From: a virus
Lineage: Duplodnaviria; Heunggongvirae; Uroviricota; Caudoviricetes
Virus record (IMG/VR): IMGVR_UViG_3300021066_000001
DNA: 64,000 bases
Strand: one strand, 5' to 3'
A program made the position numbers and the translations under genes. Below are positions 2,091 to 29,196 of the stretch, one piece after another. Within the stretch, counting starts at the first letter, position 1. Each line of letters starts with the position of its first letter. The notes under the pieces are model-generated. The model had not been told where the DNA came from and did not search any database. It was given only the letters and a program-made list of their open reading frames with translations.

Positions 2091-2464
2091 GGTGGACCAG
2101 GCGGGAGTCGAACCCGCGTCCTGAAGTCTTCCGGCGCAAACTTCTACGAAGCGTATGAGGTTTCTTTGATCTCGGACCAGAGCGCTGTAGCCTCCAAATA
2201 GCTCTTCGATCCTAGCTCTAAATCTTCAGACGCTTAACGAGCCTTCAGCGTCCTATCCGGCATTGATGACGGAGATGATCAGACCCACCGGCGAGGGCCG
2301 AAGTCTCCGGGGACAGCCGGTTATTAAGCGGCGATGGCCCAGGTGGCGTCGTTAGACGCGCTTGCGTTGACGTTTAAGCGTCGTGGCAGGGATTAACGAC
2401 CGTGTCCACAAGGTCGGCTTCGCGATCTACGTCTTCTTACCCCAGTCGAAACCATGACTGGCCC
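2091..2464 (-). ncRNA. ssrA: tmRNA (one-piece); predicted tag (A)VNASASNDATWAIAA
   Basis: 5' GGGCCAGTCATGGTTTCGAC; 3' GAC-GCGGG-TTCGACT-CCCGC-CTGGTCC-ACC with G3-U70 and A73. Tag frame 2324-2371 follows UUAAAC and ends GCC GCT TAA TAA. TAAATA at 2473-2478. Confidence 0.92.
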
Positions 2465-15715: not shown

Positions 15716-16082
15716 CGCCGATCGGTGCATCTCGTGCGACAAGTGCGTCAAGGTGTGCCCCACCAACGTCTTCGACACGACTAAGACCATTCCGATCATC
15801 GCTAGGAAGGAAGATTGCCAAACGTGCTTCATCTGCGAGGTCTATTGTCCTGTCGACGCGATCTACGTAGCCCCATTTACGCATGAGATCGAGGTGGATG
15901 AACAGCAGCTCGCGAGAAACGGAAAGCTAGGAGCTTATCGGAGAGCTCTAGGTTGGAAGCGGGAGGGCGACAACATCGCAGCTAGAGTAGCTAAAGTTCA
16001 AGAGCTGCGAGAAAAAGCTCTAAGCTCTCCGGGCGCTGAGCATCTTGATGAACCTCGCCGGGATCCTACCTCTATAAGCTAG
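15699..16082 (+). CDS. 2x[4Fe-4S] ferredoxin (AprB-like)
   Basis: CISCDKCVKVCP and CQTCFICEVYCP; overlaps the flavoprotein stop. Confidence 0.88.
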   Translation: MIELLSADRCISCDKCVKVCPTNVFDTTKTIPIIARKEDCQTCFICEVYCPVDAIYVAPFTHEIEVDEQQLARNGKLGAYRRALGWKREGDNIAARVAKVQELREKALSSPGAEHLDEPRRDPTSIS

Positions 16083-16934
16083 CGAGCCGAGCTCCTGAAC
16101 CGATCTCTTCTGCATCTCGTGCTCCTTGTCCTTGTTCTTCGTTAGAAAGACCGCGAAGTGATCGTCGGGGCGGAGCTTGGCGGAGTCAGGTACCTCTACC
16201 TTGAGGATGACGTAACCATCATCGTTATCCTTCTCGGCCTGACGCTTGCCGTAGAACTCGGCGACCTTGGCGGTCGTTGCGAGGTAAACGTTCTCCTCAG
16301 AATAGCCCTTGACAAGATCGACGTAGATCTCGCCCGTGTTTCCTGGACGCAGACCCTCTCGAGAGATCTTCTCGTTCCAGCGCTTCTTCGAGGTTCCGTG
16401 ATACATGATTTGGCCGCCGCCTCCCATCATCGTTTGAACGGGGTCGGGGTGCTTGAGGAAGTCGCCCATCTTCATTCCATTGTATGGAGACGGGACACCC
16501 TTGAGCTTGAAGTCGTCCGTGACGCCATACTTGCGGAGGTTCTTGAACGCGGCCTGGATGTCCTTGACGTCGTTGATCGAGCGCTGGCGCATCTTGTCAC
16601 CAACAGACTCCTTGCTCACGGTGATGACCTTGTTCTTGAGGTCGACCTTGCCGCCGAAGTGATTCCAGAGGCTGGAGTCCATCTTGTAGTCCTTGATCTT
16701 GCCGGCCCGCTTAGCCTCGATCTGACCGGTCGCGACGACGCTCGAATAGACCGCATTGTCGGTGCTGTGGAGGATGAGATCACCCTTGTGATAGGTAAAA
16801 TGAAATCCCTCGGAGGGCGCCATGAATTGAGGATCTTCTCTGCGGGGCCAGTAGGCGAGGTCGTCGAAGCGATCCTCGTGCCGATAGTCCTTGACGGACT
16901 TGGCTTCAAGAAGAAATTGGCGGAAGGAGCTCAC
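16020..16934 (-). CDS. Putative virion-packaged ADP-ribosyltransferase-fold protein
   Basis: Leader MSSFRQFLLEA; C-terminal YHGT...GL...VYLAT...YG...ILKVEV resembles ART/Tpt1 folds; TAAATA at 16939-16944. Confidence 0.6.
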   Translation of the reverse strand: MSSFRQFLLEAKSVKDYRHEDRFDDLAYWPRREDPQFMAPSEGFHFTYHKGDLILHSTDNAVYSSVVATGQIEAKRAGKIKDYKMDSSLWNHFGGKVDLKNKVITVSKESVGDKMRQRSINDVKDIQAAFKNLRKYGVTDDFKLKGVPSPYNGMKMGDFLKHPDPVQTMMGGGGQIMYHGTSKKRWNEKISREGLRPGNTGEIYVDLVKGYSEENVYLATTAKVAEFYGKRQAEKDNDDGYVILKVEVPDSAKLRPDDHFAVFLTKNKDKEHEMQKRSVQELGSLAYRGRIPARFIKMLSARRA

Positions 16935-16951: not shown

Positions 16952-17034
16952 TGGTGCCGACGGAGGGATTCGAACCCTCACGAGCCTGGGGTTTAAGCCC
17001 AGTGACTGTCCCAATTTGTCCTAGCCACGCCGGC
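16952..17034 (-). tRNA. Atypical tRNA, anticodon UAA (Leu), 5-nt insertion before the D-arm and short variable loop
   Basis: GCCGGCG/CGTCGGC-ACCA; AC arm CTGGG-CTTAAAC-CCCAG; variable region GCTCGT only. Confidence 0.75.
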
Positions 17035-17055
17035 GTGATTCGAAAGCAGTACCTC

Positions 17056-17274
17056 TGGTAGGGCAGGCGGGAGTCGAACCCGCAAACGCCTCCGACCTGA
17101 GTCATTACTTCAGGCAACGCCGCCGTTGGAAACCTGCTTCCCTGCTAACCCCTTGGCAGGAGCTTCGCCCGGTGCAATCTGTTAACCGTACTCGACGACG
17201 TTCTTGATGGAGACGCCCATTTTACTGGAGCTCGTCCGTGTTTTACAAGTGGCCTTCCTTCGGCCTTCTGCCCC
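17056..17274 (-). ncRNA. 219-nt tRNA-like / mini-tmRNA-like RNA containing ORF MGVSIKNVVEYG* (17182-17220)
   Basis: Acceptor GGGGCAG/CTGCCCT-ACCA, D-like GGCC-GAAGGAA-GGCC, and a T-arm identical to that of the tmRNA. Confidence 0.7.
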
Positions 17275-17353
17275 GGTGGATCGGAAGGGAATCGAACCCT
17301 CGTCGCGTTTCCCTTGGGAAGGGTCCCACGCAGTTGCCAAGAGCTGCCGACCC
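17275..17353 (-). ncRNA. tRNA-like RNA with Ala acceptor (G3-U70, A73) and UUCCCAA (Gly-type) loop
   Basis: GGGTCGG/CCGATCC-ACC; GAC-GAGGG-TTCGATT-CCCTT; arm GCGT..CCC-TTCCCAA-GGG..ACGC. Confidence 0.7.
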
Positions 17354-17360
17354 AGAACCA

Positions 17361-17476
17361 CACATCACCTAGCCGGTTTGGCGCGAGCGGGTGGGCTACA
17401 ACCGGAAATGCCACCGAGGAATCTCACCTCGGCTGCGCCCAGACGAGCTGGGACGACTCGCCACCATCGTGATGTG
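17361..17476 (-). ncRNA. Candidate structured spacer RNA closed by an 8-9 bp terminal stem
   Basis: CACATCAC/GTGATGTG termini; internal hairpins CCCAG/CTGGG and CCGAGG-TGAGATT-CCTCGG. Confidence 0.4.
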
Positions 17477-17478
17477 CT

Positions 17479-17553
17479 TGGCAAGGGATGAGGGAATCGA
17501 ACCCCCGACTCGGAGTTTGGAGCTCCGCGTAGTTACCACTACACCAATCCCCT
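17479..17553 (-). tRNA. tRNA-Trp(CCA)
   Basis: AC arm CGGAG-CTCCAAA-CTCCG, G73, encoded CCA. Confidence 0.93.
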
Positions 17554-17615
17554 ACTGAACTGCTCGGTACCCTTCGCCCGTTGCGGTACCGATGTATTTT
17601 AGCACTGGACACAGC

Positions 17616-17689
17616 TGGCGGGTCGTCAAGGAATCGAACCCTGACTAAGAGTTTTGGAGGCTCCTGTGCTGCCACTACACCAACGACCC
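17616..17689 (-). tRNA. tRNA-Trp(CCA), second copy
   Basis: GGGTCGT/ACGACCC-GCCA; loop CTCCAAA. Confidence 0.9.
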
Positions 17690-17712
17690 GAGATAAGACG
17701 ATGCGGCCAGTA

Positions 17713-17800
17713 CTTTCTGAGATAGGACTCGAACCTACAATTCCACCTACTGGCAGGCAGCGCGACATGACTCGCACAGGGATTAACCCAGGGATTGCCC
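17713..17800 (-). pseudogene. Degenerate tRNA-like element (T-arm intact, CAT in a 6-nt loop, no good acceptor)
   Basis: GTAGG-TTCGAGT-CCTAT T-arm, GCGA-GTCATG-TCGC hairpin and a variable hairpin; boundaries approximate. Confidence 0.35.
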
Positions 17801-17820
17801 ATTCCCCCACTCATCCGTCT

Positions 17821-17907
17821 TGGTGCCTACGGAGGGACTCGAACCCTCAATCCCGTTAGGGAACAACGCTCTCAACGTTGCGCGTATACCAGTTCCGCCA
17901 CGCAGGC
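17821..17907 (-). tRNA. tRNA-Leu(GAG)
   Basis: Canonical class II cloverleaf, CAACG-TTGAGAG-CGTTG, CCA. Confidence 0.95.
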
Positions 17908-17913
17908 AAGGTA

Positions 17914-18024
17914 GAGCAAGGTGAGGGAATTCCCTGCTAGGATCCTCGTTACCGCGATTCGATGCGTAGCCCGGTAGCAGCCGGTCACGCTCTTTGGTTC
18001 TCGCCGCGAAATTTCACCTTGCTC
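17914..18024 (-). ncRNA. Candidate structured spacer RNA closed by an 11-bp terminal stem
   Basis: GAGCAAGGTGA/TCACCTTGCTC perfect inverted repeat filling the gap between two tRNAs. Confidence 0.45.
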
Positions 18025-18120
18025 TGGCGGAGAGCGGCGGTCTCGATCCGCATCCAAGAGCTCGCGCTCCCAGACGATCCGCTTAGCAGGCGGTCCCAGG
18101 GCCTCCCCGGTTCACTCTCC
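18025..18120 (-). tRNA. tRNA-Ser(GCU), 8/4 acceptor/T-stem type
   Basis: GGAGAGTG/CGCTCTCC (8 bp), T-stem GCGG/CCGC (4 bp), loop CTGCTAA, G73. Confidence 0.88.
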
Positions 18121-18491
18121 ATCGTCAGTGCCGTCGAACATCGCCATCCTACCTCCGTCGGCGATCGTCGCTCTCATCTTCTCGACACAGTCACGAACGG
18201 CTGCTCTGACCGTTCGTCCGAACCCGACTACCTCGACGCTTCTCGTTTTGTTCGGAAATCCCTCAGCTGGTGCTGGAACTCGAGGGTGTCCAAAGACACC
18301 TCCAGTACTCCCCACCCAGAAAGCTTGAGGGGAGCGGATGCAACCTGTACTTGTTGATCGCGTTCAGCAGCTCGGTGTCGTTCATGATAAAGGCTCCTAA
18401 GTAGAGGTCGCTCGTCTGATGCAGCATGCAAAAGCTACGTCAAAAAGGTCATGAGTCTCCAAACGCCGTTGCCAGCGCCTGCTTGCTTCCT

Positions 18492-18579
18492 TGGCGGATG
18501 ACGGAGGTCCCGACCCCCAGCCCGTTTCCGAGTCCATCTGCTTTCGAGGCAGCGCTAGTCCCTGACTAGTTCGTCATCC
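18492..18579 (-). tRNA. tRNA-Ser(CGA), 8/4 type
   Basis: GGATGACG/CGTCATCC, GGGG/CCTC, loop CTCGAAA. Confidence 0.88.
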
Positions 18580-18752
18580 TTGGGTTCGATCCGGGTGACG
18601 ATGATCTCGTCATCGCTCACCCTCCTCGTCCTGATCGTGATTCCTCTGTTTCGAGCGATCGCGTGGTACCAGGACGAGTACTTCACCCTGCGAGACTCGT
18701 TTACCTGGATGCCCTGGATCAGCTCACCTGCTTCTCTAGACTTGAGGTTCAT
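18555..18752 (-). CDS. Small hypothetical protein (MNLKSREAGE...) inside the tRNA array
   Basis: AAGGAG RBS; the stop lies inside tRNA-Ser(CGA). Confidence 0.55.
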   Translation of the reverse strand: MNLKSREAGELIQGIQVNESRRVKYSSWYHAIARNRGITIRTRRVSDDEIIVTRIEPKDDELVRD

Positions 18753-18763
18753 GTCGTCTCCTT

Positions 18764-18847
18764 TGGTGCGAGCGGTGGGAGTCGAACCCACATACCTTGC
18801 GGCACGTGCTCCTAAGGCACGTGTGTATACCATTCCACCACGCTCGC
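18764..18847 (-). tRNA. tRNA-Leu(UAG)
   Basis: CGTGC-CTTAGGA-GCACG; canonical. Confidence 0.95.
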
Positions 18848-18851
18848 ATAC

Positions 18852-18944
18852 TGGCGGAAGACGGAGGAGATGATCCCCAATCACGGGTTGGCCGCGATCC
18901 CATCGCTTTCAAGGCGAGTCCGAGACCTTCTCGGTTCGTCTTCC
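18852..18944 (-). tRNA. tRNA-Ser(UGA), 8/4 type
   Basis: GGAAGACG/CGTCTTCC, GGGG-ATCATCT-CCTC, loop CTTGAAA. Confidence 0.88.
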
Positions 18945-18948
18945 ATGC

Positions 18949-19031
18949 TGGTCCCCTCGCTCGGATTCGAACCGAGAAAAGCCTAGACTCTCGATCTAGT
19001 AGGTGTACCAATTTCCATTTGCCACGAGGGG
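18949..19031 (-). tRNA. Atypical tRNA, anticodon GAG (Leu), insertion before the D-arm, short variable loop, C33
   Basis: CCCCTCG/CGAGGGG-ACCA; CTAGA-TCGAGAG-TCTAG; variable region GCTTTT. Confidence 0.75.
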
Positions 19032-19039
19032 TCTCGTGT

Positions 19040-19128
19040 TGGTGCCCTCGGTCGGAGTCGAACCGACAATACGCTTTCGCGGCTCCAGGTTCTGAGCCTG
19101 GCAACTTTACCAATTTGTCCACGAGGGC
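19040..19128 (-). tRNA. tRNA-Leu(CAG)
   Basis: CCAGG-CTCAGAA-CCTGG; canonical. Confidence 0.95.
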
Positions 19129-19146
19129 AGCGTTACTTCTACAACT

Positions 19147-19236
19147 TGGAGGAGAGCGGCGGTCCCGACCCGCGACCAGCTTACGCCAGCCCGACTGCTT
19201 TCCAGGCAGTGCCACACCCCGTGCGGTTCACTCTCC
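19147..19236 (-). tRNA. tRNA-Ser(GGA), 8/4 type, U73
   Basis: GGAGAGTG/CGCTCTCC-TCCA; ACTGC-CTGGAAA-GCAGT. Confidence 0.88.
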
Positions 19237-19240
19237 AATT

Positions 19241-19332
19241 TGGTGGGTCTGGGGTAGAATCGAACTCCGTGCCTCGCTGAGGAAGAGCTTTACAGGCTCC
19301 TGACAGGACCACCCGTCCTTATGACCAGACCC
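19241..19332 (-). tRNA. Atypical tRNA-Tyr(GUA) with 8-bp acceptor and remodelled D-arm
   Basis: GGGTCTGG/CCAGACCC-ACCA; D hairpin AGGAC-GGGTG-GTCCT; loop CTGTAAA; imperfect T-stem. Confidence 0.7.
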
Positions 19333-19337
19333 AATGT

Positions 19338-19425
19338 TGGTGGATGGTGATGGATTTGAACCACCGAAGCCCGTCAGGGCGCCTGGTTTACAGCCAGGTG
19401 CAATTGGCCACTCTGCCAACCATCC
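19338..19425 (-). tRNA. tRNA-Tyr(GUA)
   Basis: CCTGG-CTGTAAA-CCAGG; canonical. Confidence 0.95.
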
Positions 19426-19426
19426 T

Positions 19427-19513
19427 TGGTGCCAGACCCCGGGCTCGAACCGGGACACCCTCACGGGTACTAATTTTTGAGACTAGCGCGTCTGCCGATT
19501 CCGCCAGTCTGGC
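19427..19513 (-). tRNA. tRNA-Leu(CAA)
   Basis: CTAGT-CTCAAAA-ATTAG; canonical. Confidence 0.95.
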
Positions 19514-19530
19514 AAGGTACTGCTTCCGAA

Positions 19531-19695: not shown

Positions 19696-19724
19696 ACTAT
19701 ATATTAGTTCTCGACGGAAGTAAA
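19696..19724 (-). promoter_or_regulatory. Early promoter of the tRNA array, TTTACT-N17-TATAGT
   Basis: Consensus match with 17-nt spacer. Confidence 0.7.
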
Positions 19725-28044: not shown

Positions 28045-29196
28045 CTAACGCGTGGTGAGCCCCTTCTCCACCTTGTTGATCGCGGCTCGCACCGCTTGCC
28101 GGACCGACTTGGTCTGGAGCGACATCGACTTTGGCGCATCCAAGCCGTCGTCGGTTGCTTGATGCATTCCGACGATGTCCTCGAACTTGCCGTTTGCCGC
28201 CTGCTTCACCGGCACCATCCTACCGCGACGTTCGAGGATCAGCACCTTGCCGTCATCGGTCAGGAGCCCGTAGCTCTTGGCCAGGTTCTCCAAGCTTGGC
28301 CGGAGCCACCCGACCAGCTTGACGTCCGGCATCGCGTCTTGCTTCGTGTCCTCGTCGATGAAGGCGTCCTTAAATGCCTCCGCGACCGGGCCGTCATCGG
28401 TGTTTCGCGCGCCGGTGTACTCCCCGACCACGAAGTACTCGCTGGCCCGACCCTTCTGGAACTTGTAGTCCGTCGGGATCGCGAACACGTGCCGCGGGTT
28501 CACCTTGACGATCACGATCTTGCTGGCGCCGCCGGCGCCGAAGTGATCCAGGTACCCCTTCGAGCAAAAGTGCAAGCCGACCGAGCAGTGGTTCTCTCGG
28601 TTCGTGTCGACCTCCGACTGCTGCATCCTGACGACGTTGCCGGGCGAGTTGTCGATCGTCCCGGTGTGGCCGTCCATGAAGTTGCTCCGCACCTTCTTGT
28701 ACGCCAGGAAGCAACCGTCATACGTGATCGGCGCCTTGCCGGACATCAGCCACTCGTACAGCTCGTTGCGGATGTCCTTGACCTTGTTCTTGCGGATGTT
28801 CTGCATGAACCGCATCAGGGCGTCGCCGTACCGCGCGAACGCCTTGGACGGCTTCCCGAGGTCTTGGAGGATCCTCTCCGCGAGGGCGCCGTGCAGCTCC
28901 TGCTTGTGGCCGCGGTACTCCGAGTAAAAGAGCTTGCCCTTCTCCACGAAGACCCGGCAGTCCTTGAGCTTGTGGTCCTTCGGCTGGCCGAAGCTCTCGA
29001 CCAATCCGCCGACCGTCATGACCTTGTCCAGGTCCTTGAGCTTGGCTTCGAGGGCCTCGCCGCGTAGTCCCTTCAGACTACGGAGAACGTCCATGACGTA
29101 CGAAAAGTTCGGCTGGTCGTTCATCACGACAGCGTGCCGTCCGTTGCGGACCATCGCCACACCGGTGGTGTGGGTCACGAAGTGAAAGTCGGTCAA
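28045..29196 (-). CDS. rIIB: rIIB-like protein
   Basis: ITYDGCFLAYKKV...DGHTG..DNS.G.VV.M....VD.N....CSVGLHFC...Y; adjacent to rIIA. Confidence 0.88.
   Translation of the reverse strand: MTDFHFVTHTTGVAMVRNGRHAVVMNDQPNFSYVMDVLRSLKGLRGEALEAKLKDLDKVMTVGGLVESFGQPKDHKLKDCRVFVEKGKLFYSEYRGHKQELHGALAERILQDLGKPSKAFARYGDALMRFMQNIRKNKVKDIRNELYEWLMSGKAPITYDGCFLAYKKVRSNFMDGHTGTIDNSPGNVVRMQQSEVDTNRENHCSVGLHFCSKGYLDHFGAGGASKIVIVKVNPRHVFAIPTDYKFQKGRASEYFVVGEYTGARNTDDGPVAEAFKDAFIDEDTKQDAMPDVKLVGWLRPSLENLAKSYGLLTDDGKVLILERRGRMVPVKQAANGKFEDIVGMHQATDDGLDAPKSMSLQTKSVRQAVRAAINKVEKGLTTR

What the first reader, a model, noticed from the sequence alone, without database searches (positions are those of the whole stretch)
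17275..17353. 79-nt tRNA-like RNA combining a full alanine identity set with a glycine-type anticodon loop
Seen: acceptor GGGTCGG/CCGATCC gives G1-C72, G2-C71, G3-U70 and A73. There is no proper 4-bp D-stem, and a GAC linker precedes the T-arm exactly as in the tmRNA. The central arm is GCGT-GGGA-CCC-[TTCCCAA]-GGG-AA-ACGC. It abuts the 219-nt element with zero spacer (ACC|GGGGCAG). Established: G3-U70 is sufficient for AlaRS charging, and UUCCCAA is the loop of tRNA-Gly(CCC). Inference: either a 'TLD-only' tmRNA mimic (an Ala donor with no message) or an Ala-charged reader of GGG codons, i.e. a missense tRNA. The zero-spacer tandem suggests co-processing and a joint function with the mini-tmRNA.
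Basis: partly seen in the sequence, partly recalled or inferred. Interest (0 to 1): 0.76.

Follow-up and report, generated by a model that had tools for sequence, protein, structure and literature searches.

The report
Orphan alanine-type tRNA-like phage gene
A 79-base gene in a giant phage's tRNA cluster keeps the amino-acid-accepting half of an alanine tRNA intact but has a rebuilt, non-standard lower half. It is most likely a non-decoding tRNA look-alike or relic, not a mini-tmRNA or a codon-reassigning tRNA.

Summary
The sequence features are real. On the minus strand, 17353-17275 has a perfect 7-bp acceptor stem (G3:U70, A73, CC), a perfect T arm, no usable D stem, and a bulged central hairpin ending in UUCCCAA. 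It abuts the next RNA gene with no spacer.

It lies in a same-strand array of about 15 tRNA-like genes in a ~396-kb phage. Its upper half is tRNA-Ala-like: 34 of 38 positions match a phage tRNA-Ala. G3:U70 occurs in 5/5 tRNA-Ala and 1/122 other tRNAs in the loci I held.

The "tmRNA-like" GAC linker is not diagnostic, because the same 20-mer occurs in true tRNA-Gly genes. Rfam's tmRNA model and a model built from the known TLD-only tmRNA of phage DS6A score the element no better than ordinary tRNAs.

I found no homologue in related phages, IMG/VR, GTDB genomes or GenBank phages. Conservation and expression could not be tested.

Best reading, at about 0.5: a tRNA-Ala-derived RNA that is cut out of the array transcript, can probably be charged with alanine, and does not decode. 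It is a relic or a processing punctuation mark. A TLD-only mimic (~0.12) and a GGG-to-Ala decoder (~0.07) remain possible.

The scan has noted similar crippled alanine-type tRNA-like genes in other phage genomes; those notes are unverified.

The parts
17347..17353 (-). Acceptor stem, 5' strand (GGGUCGG; element positions 1-7).
   Evidence: Sequence. All 7 pairs form with 17278-17284, with pair probabilities 0.52-1.0.
17333..17346 (-). Unpaired D-region remnant (CAGCUCUUGGCAAC). It keeps the xA-GCUC 5' strand of a tRNA-Ala D stem and a GG, but has no partner strand, no U8 and no A14.
   Evidence: Alignment to phage tRNA-Ala genes. The ARAGORN drawing has only 2 of 4 D-stem pairs.
17304..17332 (-). 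Central bulged hairpin: outer helix UGCGU/ACGCG (5 bp), a 4x2 internal loop (GGGA/AA), inner helix CCC/GGG, and the 7-nt loop UUCCCAA at 17314-17320. It is about 10 stacked layers long, the length of a D stem plus an anticodon stem.
   Evidence: Constrained fold, -28.3 kcal/mol. The loop is identical to that of E. coli tRNA-Gly(CCC). A competing hairpin, UGGGA-CCCU-UCCCA, is favoured in the unconstrained ensemble.
17302..17303 (-). Two-base linker (AC of 'GAC') before the T stem.
   Evidence: Sequence. The same context occurs in tRNA-Gly genes and in tmRNAs.
17285..17301 (-). T arm, GAGGG-UUCGAUU-CCCUU, with a canonical T loop.
   Evidence: Sequence. It is identical to the T arm of Rhodococcus phage Dorin tRNA-Ala(UGC) and of E. 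coli tRNA-Gly(CCC).
17275..17284 (-). Acceptor stem 3' strand (CCGAUCC, with U70), discriminator A73 and CC. The terminal A is not encoded.
   Evidence: Sequence. This is the only gene of the array without an encoded CCA, the same as the phage's own tmRNA.
17056..17274 (-). Adjacent 219-nt RNA gene with its own closed acceptor stem and T arm. Cleavage at its 5' end would create the 3' end of the 79-nt RNA.
   Evidence: Sequence. Weak tmRNA-model hit at its 3' part, 21.2 bits. No homologue seen.
17039..17054 (-). Trailer strand of a 16-bp long-range stem that pairs with the leader at 19515-19530. The stem brackets the transcription/processing unit that contains the element.
   Evidence: All 16 positions pair, one as G-U.
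19515..19530 (-). Leader strand of the same 16-bp stem, 1 nt upstream of the first tRNA, Leu(CAA).
19696..19724 (-). Promoter-like site (TTTACT-17-TATAGT) upstream of the array. It is a consensus match only.

Best explanation
The element is a diverged copy of a tRNA-Ala gene embedded in the phage's tRNA array. Its aminoacyl-acceptor half (acceptor stem with G3:U70 and A73, plus the T arm) is intact. Its D arm and anticodon arm have been rebuilt into one long bulged hairpin.

Inferred life cycle:
1. It is transcribed with the array from the promoter-like site near 19.7 kb.
2. RNase P cuts at its own 5' end. RNase P cutting at the 5' end of the abutting 219-nt RNA leaves ...ACC-OH at its 3' end.
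3. The CCA-adding enzyme adds the last A.
4. Host AlaRS charges it, since AlaRS needs only the G3:U70 acceptor helix.

It most likely does not decode. It lacks the D stem and the U8/A14 core, and only three canonical pairs flank the loop. I read it as a crippled tRNA-Ala paralogue: a relic whose intact upper half at most serves as a processing punctuation mark between the neighbouring structured RNAs. I do not read it as a dedicated tmRNA-type device.

Shown here: the anatomy, the tRNA-Ala-type upper half, the array context, and the failure to find homologues in the collections searched. Inferred: transcription, processing, charging and non-decoding.
For: - The anatomy was read directly from the sequence.
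- The upper half (first 13 nt, T arm, 3' acceptor strand and discriminator) matches Rhodococcus phage Dorin tRNA-Ala(UGC) at 34 of 38 positions. The next best of 171 tRNA-like sequences is 28 of 38, shared by three sequences, one of them another tRNA-Ala. The 3' 27 nt are 26/27 identical.
- The best non-self hits of a covariance model of the element are tRNA-Ala genes, at 33.8 and 30.5 bits.
- G3:U70 is found in 5/5 tRNA-Ala and only 1/122 other tRNAs in the loci held, so it is more likely ancestral than accidental.
- All 12 pairs of the acceptor and T stems are intact. The D stem has 2 of 4 pairs and the stem next to the loop 3 of 5.
- ARAGORN accepts it only at 95% of its threshold. No Rfam tRNA match was listed; because only the best match of a clan is kept, any tRNA-model score was below the tmRNA model's 23.9 bits.
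- It lies in a same-strand run of 15 tRNA-like genes bracketed by a verified 16-bp leader/trailer stem.
- Searches that found no homologue:
  - the arrays of the related phages G001 and RsoM2USA, and the metagenomic arrays L040 and L042;
  - three IMG/VR pattern scans;
  - a pattern scan of 185,579 species genomes;
  - GenBank phages.
- That G3:U70 in an acceptor/T minihelix suffices for AlaRS is established knowledge (Hou & Schimmel 1988; Francklyn & Schimmel 1989). Natural G3:U70 tRNAs with non-Ala anticodons, re-fitted with an amber anticodon, read the amber codon efficiently in E. coli in a test of AlaRS charging (PMC5389517).
Against: - Twelve of 12 upper-half pairs are intact while the lower half is rebuilt. 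That pattern is also what selection for a chargeable, non-decoding RNA would produce.
- The central arm has about 10 layers, the length of a normal D-plus-anticodon stack, and ends in a well-formed 7-nt loop with U33 and A37. This looks designed rather than decayed.
- Other irregular tRNAs of the same array are clearly functional. The Leu tRNA lacking a variable arm at 16952-17034 has a homologue in G001 with compensatory stem changes. An odd shape alone therefore does not mean a dead gene.
- A first-stage note, which I could not check, reports a second Ala-acceptor mimic elsewhere in the same genome.
- Failing to find homologues is weak evidence. The nearest relatives are distant (41-64% protein identity), and the most similar array, L042, is cut off just where a homologue might lie.
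Confidence: 0.5

Rival explanations
1. A TLD-only tmRNA mimic, as in mycobacteriophage DS6A. It would be an alanine-accepting tRNA-like domain without a message that binds SmpB (and EF-Tu), either modulating or blocking host trans-translation or working with the phage's own tmRNA.
For: - The layout is TLD-like: acceptor with G3:U70 and A73, unpaired D region with GG, one long hairpin in the place of P2, a GAC linker, and a T arm.
- Rfam's tmRNA model is the best-scoring family, at 23.9 bits, E = 4e-7.
- Like the phage's tmRNA, and unlike the 14 other array genes, it ends ACC|G without an encoded A.
- A TLD-only phage tmRNA is documented, and a similar molecule inhibits tmRNA (PMC4131195, PMC11915505).
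- The phage carries a tmRNA and a Pth2 gene nearby.
Against: - The tmRNA model aligns only the acceptor and T arm. The conserved D-loop analogue and the G.A-closed P2 are not matched, whereas DS6A aligns there and scores 34.7-43.2 bits.
- A DS6A-derived covariance model gives 23.9 bits, no better than ordinary Leu tRNAs at 25.7-30.6 bits.
- Class II tRNAs get similar tmRNA-model scores, 23.2-27.7 bits.
- The upper half is nearest to a tRNA-Ala.
- The GAC linker also occurs in tRNA-Gly genes.
Confidence: 0.12
2. A processing punctuation element, in the manner of mascRNA. The intact upper half would exist to recruit RNase P (and RNase Z or the CCA enzyme), so that the flanking structured RNAs (the ~110-nt closed-stem RNA upstream and the 219-nt RNA downstream) get exact ends. 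The released 79-mer would be a by-product.
For: - It sits between two non-tRNA structured RNAs, with a 0-nt spacer downstream and a short spacer upstream.
- The whole unit is bracketed by a 16-bp processing-type stem.
- There is a weak mascRNA-menRNA match, 18.4 bits, E = 2.5.
- Only the half that RNase P recognises is preserved.
Against: - The 219-nt RNA has its own acceptor/T module, so it does not need the element to be cut at its 5' end.
- A punctuation role does not require G3:U70, A73 or a well-formed 7-nt loop.
- No conserved family was found.
Confidence: 0.15
3. A working but rewired tRNA that reads GGG. The long central arm would replace the D-plus-anticodon stack, presenting a CCC anticodon at the normal distance. 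The tRNA would be charged with alanine, giving Gly-to-Ala recoding or mistranslation, or with glycine by an unusual enzyme.
For: - The loop UUCCCAA equals the tRNA-Gly(CCC) loop, with U33 and A37.
- ARAGORN calls it tRNA-Gly(ccc) at 95% of threshold.
- The central arm is about 10 layers long.
- Natural G3:U70 tRNAs with non-Ala anticodons exist and can be used in translation (PMC5389517).
- Other non-cloverleaf tRNAs in this array are conserved.
Against: - There is no D stem, U8 or A14. Only 3 canonical pairs flank the loop, followed by a 4x2 internal loop.
- A competing tetraloop hairpin would destroy the anticodon loop.
- GGG supplies 18% of the phage's own Gly codons, so Ala insertion would damage phage proteins.
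- The glycine identity elements U73, C2:G71 and G3:C70 are absent.
- A pattern scan for CCC-loop plus Ala-type 3' end found no such family in IMG/VR or in 185,579 species genomes.
- The loop is one substitution away from an Ala(CGC)-type loop (own knowledge), so CCC may be a mutation.
Confidence: 0.07
4. A decoy or sponge for a host factor that acts on tRNA acceptor ends or on tRNA-Ala, for example a tRNA-cleaving or tRNA-modifying defence nuclease, or AlaRS itself.
For: - tRNA-targeting defences are widespread, and phage tRNAs are known to counter them (PMC10264068, PMC11555353).
- A bacterial Schlafen nuclease cuts anticodon arms and may prefer a phage tRNA-Ala(UGC) (PMC13056530). Cas12a3 cuts tRNA 3' tails (PMC12851939).
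- The array is dominated by class II tRNAs and remodelled variants, which suggests an arms race.
Against: Nothing ties this particular element to any defence system. There is no conserved family, and the host is unknown. This is pure inference.
Confidence: 0.06

Closest known systems
Phage and bacterial tRNA-Ala, e.g. Rhodococcus phage Dorin tRNA-Ala(UGC), PQ114736.1 87993-88066
   Same: The acceptor stem is GGGYYGG/CCGRUCC with G3:U70 and A73. Both have xA-GCUC at positions 8-13 and an identical T arm, GAGGG-UUCGAUU-CCCUU. In all, 34 of 38 upper-half positions match.
   Different: There is no 3' strand for the D stem. The anticodon arm is replaced by a longer bulged hairpin with a CCC loop instead of NGC. 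The region between positions 14 and 52 is 4 nt longer. A76 is not encoded.
TLD-only ('CDS-less') tmRNA of mycobacteriophage DS6A (JN698994.1 28478-28560; PMC4131195, PMC11915505)
   Same: Similar size (79 against 83 nt). Both have G3:U70 and A73, no D stem, a single central hairpin and a short linker to the T arm, and both are phage-borne.
   Different: DS6A keeps the tmRNA D-loop analogue (..UGGUGGUCGAC) and P2 register, and scores 34.7-43.2 bits on RF00023. The element scores 23.9 bits with that region unaligned, and a DS6A-based model scores it like any tRNA.
Irregular and allo-tRNAs with G3:U70 and non-alanine anticodons (Mukai et al., PMC5389517)
   Same: Both carry the alanine acceptor identity on a tRNA whose anticodon is not an alanine anticodon. 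Both occur in polycistrons of irregular tRNAs, some of which are charged but not used in translation.
   Different: Allo-tRNAs have 8/4 or 9/3 acceptor/T branches, intact D and anticodon arms and long variable arms. This element is 7/5 with a lost D stem.
tRNA-Gly(CCC), e.g. E. coli glyU
   Same: The anticodon loop UUCCCAA is identical, and so is the 20-mer ACGAGGGUUCGAUUCCCUUC.
   Different: The glycine acceptor identity (U73, C2:G71, G3:C70) is absent. D and anticodon stems are not conserved. Overall identity is only 53 of 79, no better than to other tRNAs.
tRNA-like processing elements (mascRNA/MALAT1 type, Rfam RF01684)
   Same: Both are tRNA-shaped modules with a good upper half and a defective lower half. 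Each is placed so that RNase P cleavage defines the ends of neighbouring RNAs.
   Different: That family is eukaryotic and the Rfam match is weak (18.4 bits against a 42.5-bit gathering score). No evidence that the neighbours depend on the element.

Membership tests
Canonical tRNA (Rfam RF00005 / ARAGORN) | 7-bp acceptor stem and 5-bp T stem with a UUCRANY T loop at the standard spacing | tested here: met
   Sequence; pairs counted.
Canonical tRNA (Rfam RF00005 / ARAGORN) | 3-4-bp D stem with the U8/A14 core | tested here: not met
   The best D stem has 2 of 4 Watson-Crick pairs. Position 8 is C and position 14 is U.
Canonical tRNA (Rfam RF00005 / ARAGORN) | 5-bp anticodon stem closing a 7-nt loop with U33 and R37 | tested here: inconclusive
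   The loop is canonical (UUCCCAA), but only 3 canonical pairs flank it, followed by G.A/A.A. A competing tetraloop hairpin is favoured.
Canonical tRNA (Rfam RF00005 / ARAGORN) | Score at or above the curated or default detection thresholds | tested here: not met
   There was no RF00005 hit at the gathering score, and none is listed at E<=10. Only the best of a clan is kept, so any such hit scored below the tmRNA model's 23.9 bits. ARAGORN calls it only at 95% of its default threshold or lower.
tRNA-Ala (AlaRS substrate) | G3:U70 wobble pair with A73 and G1-C72/G2-C71 on an accessible acceptor helix | tested here: met
   Sequence. G3:U70 is Ala-specific in the local tRNA set, 5/5 against 1/122. 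Actual charging is not testable here.
tRNA-Ala (decoder) | NGC anticodon | tested here: not met
   The loop carries CCC.
tRNA-Gly (GlyRS substrate, bacterial type) | U73, C2:G71 and G3:C70, plus C35 and C36 | tested here: not met
   The element has A73, G2:C71 and G3:U70. Only C35 and C36 are present. The identity rules are from established knowledge.
tmRNA tRNA-like domain / TLD-only tmRNA (RF00023; DS6A type) | G3:U70 acceptor with A73, a T arm, and no D stem | tested here: met
tmRNA tRNA-like domain / TLD-only tmRNA (RF00023; DS6A type) | Conserved D-loop analogue (..GGnUUCGAC) leading into a G.A-closed P2 helix | tested here: not met
   The Rfam alignment leaves this region unaligned in the element but aligns it in DS6A.
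tmRNA tRNA-like domain / TLD-only tmRNA (RF00023; DS6A type) | Scores above ordinary tRNAs on tmRNA or TLD-only models | tested here: not met
   On RF00023 the element scores 23.9 bits (gathering score 47), and class II tRNAs score 23.2-27.7. On the DS6A-derived model R2 it scores 23.9 bits, against 25.7-30.6 for Leu tRNAs.
tmRNA tRNA-like domain / TLD-only tmRNA (RF00023; DS6A type) | Binds SmpB | not testable with these tools
   Needs a binding assay.
Permuted (two-piece) tmRNA acceptor piece | The 3' acceptor strand pairs with the 5' end of the downstream coding piece, not with its own 5' end | tested here: not met
   The element closes on itself at 7 of 7 pairs; by my own pairing of the sequence, pairing with GGGGCAG of the next gene would give 5 of 7. 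ARAGORN and RF04321 find permuted tmRNAs in relatives (G001 and Pseudomonas phage SM1) but not here.

The most novel reading that the evidence does not exclude
The element is a functional, alanine-charged tRNA without a D arm. Its single 10-layer arm presents a CCC triplet. It would either insert Ala at GGG, or enter ribosomes as an anticodon-bearing, message-less TLD that works with the abutting 219-nt tmRNA-like RNA. That would be a phage-made, non-cloverleaf adaptor used in bacterial translation.
Probability: 0.08. Interest if true: 0.8.

Novelty: new member of a known kind. Interest (0 to 1): 0.3.

Why it matters
If it is only a crippled tRNA-Ala copy, the practical lesson is about annotation. 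Giant-phage tRNA arrays contain many genes that standard finders miss, and alanine-type relics look deceptively functional because AlaRS ignores the anticodon.

If it is instead kept by selection, it would add to a small set of message-less, alanine-accepting tRNA mimics: the DS6A TLD-only tmRNA and the organellar CDS-less tmRNAs. It would also raise the question of what a phage gains from an Ala-charged RNA that does not decode. The options include SmpB or AlaRS titration, a decoy for tRNA-targeting defence, or a donor for a non-ribosomal reaction. The surrounding array may be the more rewarding subject: it is enriched in class II tRNAs and holds conserved Leu tRNAs that lack the variable arm.

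Tried and rejected
1. Synteny through the neighbouring 304-aa ORF (16020-16934). Its relatives, at 40-56% identity, sit in T4-like or other large phages with no tRNA array beside them. Dead end.
2. Related phages. The IMG/VR contig G001 (64% identity in the helicase) and Ralstonia phage RsoM2USA (41%) both have tRNA arrays but no homologue of the element.
3. One metagenome scan with a tRNA-Leu(CAG) D-arm word brought two related arrays, L040 and L042. Neither has the element, and L042 ends at tRNA-Trp, just before the place where it might lie.
4. Pattern scans:
   - T arm plus Ala-type end in IMG/VR found only tmRNA 3' ends.
   - CCC loop plus Ala-type end found two tmRNA-like 3' fragments in IMG/VR and one chimeric tRNA-Gly(CCC) in an Acidimicrobiales MAG among 185,579 species genomes.
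   - D-remnant plus Ala-type end found nothing.
   - One viral scan was wasted on a mis-spaced pattern.
5. A second assembly of the same phage (395,674 bp) is identical over 8.9 kb, so it offers no population variation. The JGI copy could not be fetched.
6. Two-piece tmRNA idea (79-nt as acceptor piece, 219-nt as coding piece). Rejected, because each RNA closes its own acceptor stem and no permuted-tmRNA model hits here.
7. The 'rewired' phage tRNA-Arg(UCU) family noted earlier by the scan. I looked at the Felix O1 copy. It has a 7-nt 5' connector and a 23-nt variable region, which is a different architecture.
8. Orthology with other irregular tRNA-like genes. Neither the irregular 80-nt Ala-like gene of G001 (L007:1069-1148) nor the 78-nt anticodon-less tRNA-like RNA of RsoM2USA shows anything beyond generic upper-half similarity.
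9. Global alignment to 116 tRNAs does not resolve the ancestry of the lower half; the best matches are 50-56 identities with Gly, Trp, Ala, Cys and Leu tRNAs.
10. Tools not available.
Full report
**The observation.** On the minus strand, 17353-17275 reads as follows. It starts with a 7-bp acceptor stem, GGGUCGG/CCGAUCC, with G1-C72, G2-C71, G3-U70 and U4-A69. Next comes a 14-15-nt unpaired stretch, CAGCUCUUGGCAAC(U). A central hairpin follows: GCGU-GGGA-CCC-[UUCCCAA]-GGG-AA-ACGC. After a GAC linker there is a perfect T arm, GAGGG-UUCGAUU-CCCUU, then A73 and CC. The next base is G1 of the neighbouring 219-nt RNA, so there is no spacer and the terminal A is not encoded.

The element is not a chance pattern.
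- Rfam's tmRNA model hits exactly these coordinates at 23.9 bits, E = 4e-7 in a 2.8-kb search.
- ARAGORN, silent at default settings, calls it tRNA-Gly(ccc) at 95% of its threshold. Even at the looser 90% setting, shuffled copies of the window give only 1.6 calls per 64 kb.

**Context.** The window belongs to a phage of about 396 kb. It carries rIIA/rIIB, a PurZ-like gene, a helicase, Pth2 and a standard tmRNA at 2091-2464. Its nearest cultured relative is Ralstonia phage RsoM2USA, at 41% identity in the helicase. The nearest IMG/VR contig, here called G001, is at 64% identity.

At 90% of ARAGORN's threshold, the region 19513-16952 resolves into 15 contiguous same-strand tRNA-like genes: Leu x5-6, Ser x4, Tyr, Trp x2, this element, part of the 219-nt RNA, and a Leu-like gene. 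A promoter-like site lies upstream. A 16-bp leader/trailer stem (19530-19515 with 17054-17039, all positions pairing) brackets the unit that contains the element. Spacers of 1, 4, 4 and 8 nt occur elsewhere in the array, and a 0-nt spacer occurs in a related array. Abutment to the next gene is therefore ordinary here.

**What it derives from.**
- A covariance model of the element (R1) finds tRNA-Ala genes as its best non-self matches, at 33.8 and 30.5 bits.
- BLAST against GenBank phages finds 26/27 identity between its 3' end and the tRNA-Ala(UGC) of Rhodococcus phage Dorin.
- The full alignment to that gene shows the same T arm, the same xA-GCUC at positions 8-13, and an acceptor stem that differs by one compensatory pair and one U.G-to-C:G change.
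- Over the 38 upper-half positions, Dorin tRNA-Ala matches 34. The next best of 171 tRNA-like sequences held is 28.
- G3:U70 occurs in 5 of 5 tRNA-Ala and 1 of 122 other tRNAs in the loci held.

I conclude that the upper half is of tRNA-Ala type, and that the alanine identity set is more likely inherited than a lucky C-to-U change.

The lower half cannot be traced. Global identity to Gly, Trp, Ala, Cys and Leu tRNAs is all 50-56 positions. The loop UUCCCAA equals the E. coli tRNA-Gly(CCC) loop, and the 20-mer ACGAGGGUUCGAUUCCCUUC is identical to that tRNA. GACGAGGG...CCCUU is also present in the tRNA-Gly(UCC) of RsoM2USA. The 'GAC linker exactly as in tmRNA' is therefore equally a tRNA feature. 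From my own knowledge, the loop is one substitution away from an Ala(CGC)-type loop, UUCGCAA.

**Fold.** The unconstrained minimum-energy fold is -29.7 kcal/mol, with z = -0.94 against shuffles. It keeps the acceptor stem but forms a competing hairpin, UGGGA-CCCU-UCCCA, and mispairs the T region. With acceptor and T arm enforced, as tertiary contacts do in real tRNAs, the best fold is -28.3 kcal/mol. It has a 5-bp outer helix U22-U26/A46-G50, a 4x2 internal loop, and the CCC/GGG helix. That arm is about 10 layers long, as long as a normal D-stem-plus-anticodon-stem stack.

The canonical core is gone. Position 8 is C and position 14 is U, and the best D stem has 2 of 4 pairs. So the top half is perfect (12 of 12 pairs) and the bottom half is non-canonical.

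**Is it a TLD-only tmRNA?** That kind exists. [quoted passage not shown] I located the DS6A gene at 28478-28560.

On Rfam's tmRNA model, DS6A scores 34.7-43.2 bits, with its D-loop analogue and P2 aligned. The element scores 23.9 bits with only acceptor and T arm aligned. Ordinary class II tRNAs reach the same level, 23.2-27.7 bits. A model built from DS6A (R2) scores the element 23.9 bits, below ordinary Leu tRNAs at 25.7-30.6 bits.

The element therefore works architecturally like a TLD, but it fails the sequence tests for membership. One small link remains. It is the only gene of the array without an encoded CCA, ending ACC|G exactly as the phage's tmRNA does.

The two-piece tmRNA idea arose because relatives (G001 and Pseudomonas phage SM1) carry permuted tmRNAs. 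RsoM2USA has a sequence that reads like a permuted acceptor piece, although no model called it. I rejected the idea because the element closes its own acceptor stem 7/7 and no permuted model hits here.

**Is it a GGG-reading missense tRNA?** The geometry does not exclude it, and natural G3:U70 tRNAs with non-Ala anticodons exist and are used in translation (PMC5389517). Several points count against it:
- the lost core, and only three canonical pairs next to the loop;
- the competing hairpin;
- the absence of glycine identity elements;
- GGG supplies 18% of the phage's own glycine codons, 12.4 per 1000, so Ala insertion would hurt the phage itself;
- a pattern for 'CCC loop plus Ala-type 3' end' finds no such family in IMG/VR (two tmRNA-like fragments) or in one genome for each of 185,579 species (one chimeric gene).

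**Conservation.** I found no homologue anywhere I could look.
- The arrays of G001 and RsoM2USA.
- Two related metagenomic arrays. One of them is cut off at tRNA-Trp, just before the place where a homologue might lie.
- GenBank phages.
- IMG/VR patterns.
- A second assembly of the same phage, which is identical.

Expression data were not available.

In fairness to a functional reading, other irregular tRNAs of this array are conserved. The Leu tRNA lacking a variable arm at 16952-17034 has a G001 homologue with compensatory anticodon-stem changes and more copies elsewhere.

**Verdict.** This is a real tRNA-superfamily gene, of tRNA-Ala type in its acceptor half, with a rebuilt lower half. The most likely life cycle is inferred from established RNase P, CCA-enzyme and AlaRS rules: it is co-transcribed with the array, cut out by RNase P at its own 5' end and at the 5' end of the next gene, completed with A76, and alanylated. 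It does not decode.

I put about 0.5 on this 'crippled tRNA-Ala paralogue, relic or mere punctuation' reading. The rivals get 0.15 for a dedicated punctuation role, 0.12 for a TLD-only-type SmpB/tmRNA modulator, 0.07 for a GGG decoder and 0.06 for a defence decoy.

The scan has flagged comparable crippled alanine-type tRNA-like genes in several other phage genomes. Those are unverified notes. The recurrence may partly reflect that AlaRS ignores the anticodon, so Ala-type relics always look 'chargeable'.

Noticed in passing
window 16952-17034 and 18949-19031 (minus); L004:1495-1574 and 2557-2639, L007:1445-1524 (G001); L039:640-722: A family of irregular Leu-anticodon tRNAs that ARAGORN misses. 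They have about 5 extra nt before the D arm and no long variable arm. The family is conserved between this phage, the IMG/VR relative G001 and a metagenome contig, with compensatory anticodon-stem changes (CUGGG/CCCAG against UCAGG/CCUGA). They are probably functional non-canonical tRNAs.
   Followed up: partly
window 16952-19513 (minus): At 90% of ARAGORN's threshold the array is 15 contiguous tRNA-like genes. Almost all are class II tRNAs (Leu, Ser, Tyr) plus two Trp. Four Ser tRNAs fall just below the default threshold. The related array L042 has the same class II plus Trp make-up. This may reflect a counter-measure to a nuclease that targets class II tRNAs.
   Followed up: partly
L004:1579-1971 (IMG/VR contig IMGVR_UViG_3300012005_000004, about 66.1-66.5 kb): An RNase P RNA-like sequence (bacterial type A model, 72.9 bits against a gathering score of 100, E = 1e-20) lies directly after the last tRNA of the related phage's array. 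This is a possible phage-encoded RNase P RNA. No counterpart was detected in this window.
   Followed up: no
window 2091-2464; L006:1437-1766 (G001); RsoM2USA about 331.86 kb; L057 (Pseudomonas phage SM1): This phage has a standard one-piece tmRNA. G001 and Pseudomonas phage SM1 carry circularly permuted (two-piece) tmRNA genes, and RsoM2USA has a sequence that reads like a permuted acceptor piece. In the GenBank records (RsoM2USA, SM1) these stretches carry no annotation.
   Followed up: partly
RsoM2USA MG752970.1 110100-110177 (minus) = L010:12101-12178: An unannotated 78-nt tRNA-like RNA lies inside the RsoM2USA tRNA array. It has a 7-bp acceptor (A3:U70, A73, CCA), a T arm and no D arm. 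A single 11-bp AU-rich bulged hairpin stands in place of the anticodon arm. The architecture is TLD-like, as in the element studied, but there is no sequence homology beyond the upper half.
   Followed up: partly
L007:1069-1148 (G001): An irregular 80-nt Ala-like tRNA gene in the related phage. The acceptor is GGUUCCG/CGGAUCC with a U3.U70 mismatch, and the 3' end is ACC|U. The D arm is intact but lacks GG. The anticodon arm is extended to 4+3 bp with a bulge and a 6-nt loop containing UUUGC. Rfam's tRNA model gives 28.4 bits.
   Followed up: partly
window 17354-17478 and 17690-17820 (minus): Two RNAs of roughly 110-125 nt with closed terminal stems fill the spacers between tRNAs. The second encloses an inner 7-bp stem plus a T-arm-like module (GUAGG-UUCGAGU-CCUAU), which is reminiscent of Y-RNA-like (YrlA) designs. 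Neither was analysed further.
   Followed up: no
window 16020-16934 (minus): The 304-aa ORF just downstream of the array has no Pfam hit itself. One relative (P0037, on a 440-kb phage-like contig) carries a weak RNA 2'-phosphotransferase (PF01885, Tpt1/KptA) hit. The family is widespread in T4-like phages, next to the Mre11/Rad50-like genes.
   Followed up: partly
L057:480-551 (Pseudomonas phage SM1): A canonical tRNA-Arg(UCU) with G3:U70 and A73. It is the only non-Ala tRNA among 122 in the held loci with the alanine identity pair.
   Followed up: no
L038:5820-6010 (metagenome contig OCZT010017347.1, GC 27%): A tRNA-Leu-like gene whose two halves are separated by an insert of roughly 110 nt after the anticodon region, possibly an intron. 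ARAGORN does not call it.
   Followed up: no
L062:7431-7474 (Acidimicrobiales MAG DASZDK010000053.1): A chimeric tRNA-Gly(CCC)-like sequence whose 3' acceptor strand (CACCUCC-ACCA) is tmRNA/Ala-like and mismatches its own 5' strand. It looks like an integration-site junction.
   Followed up: no
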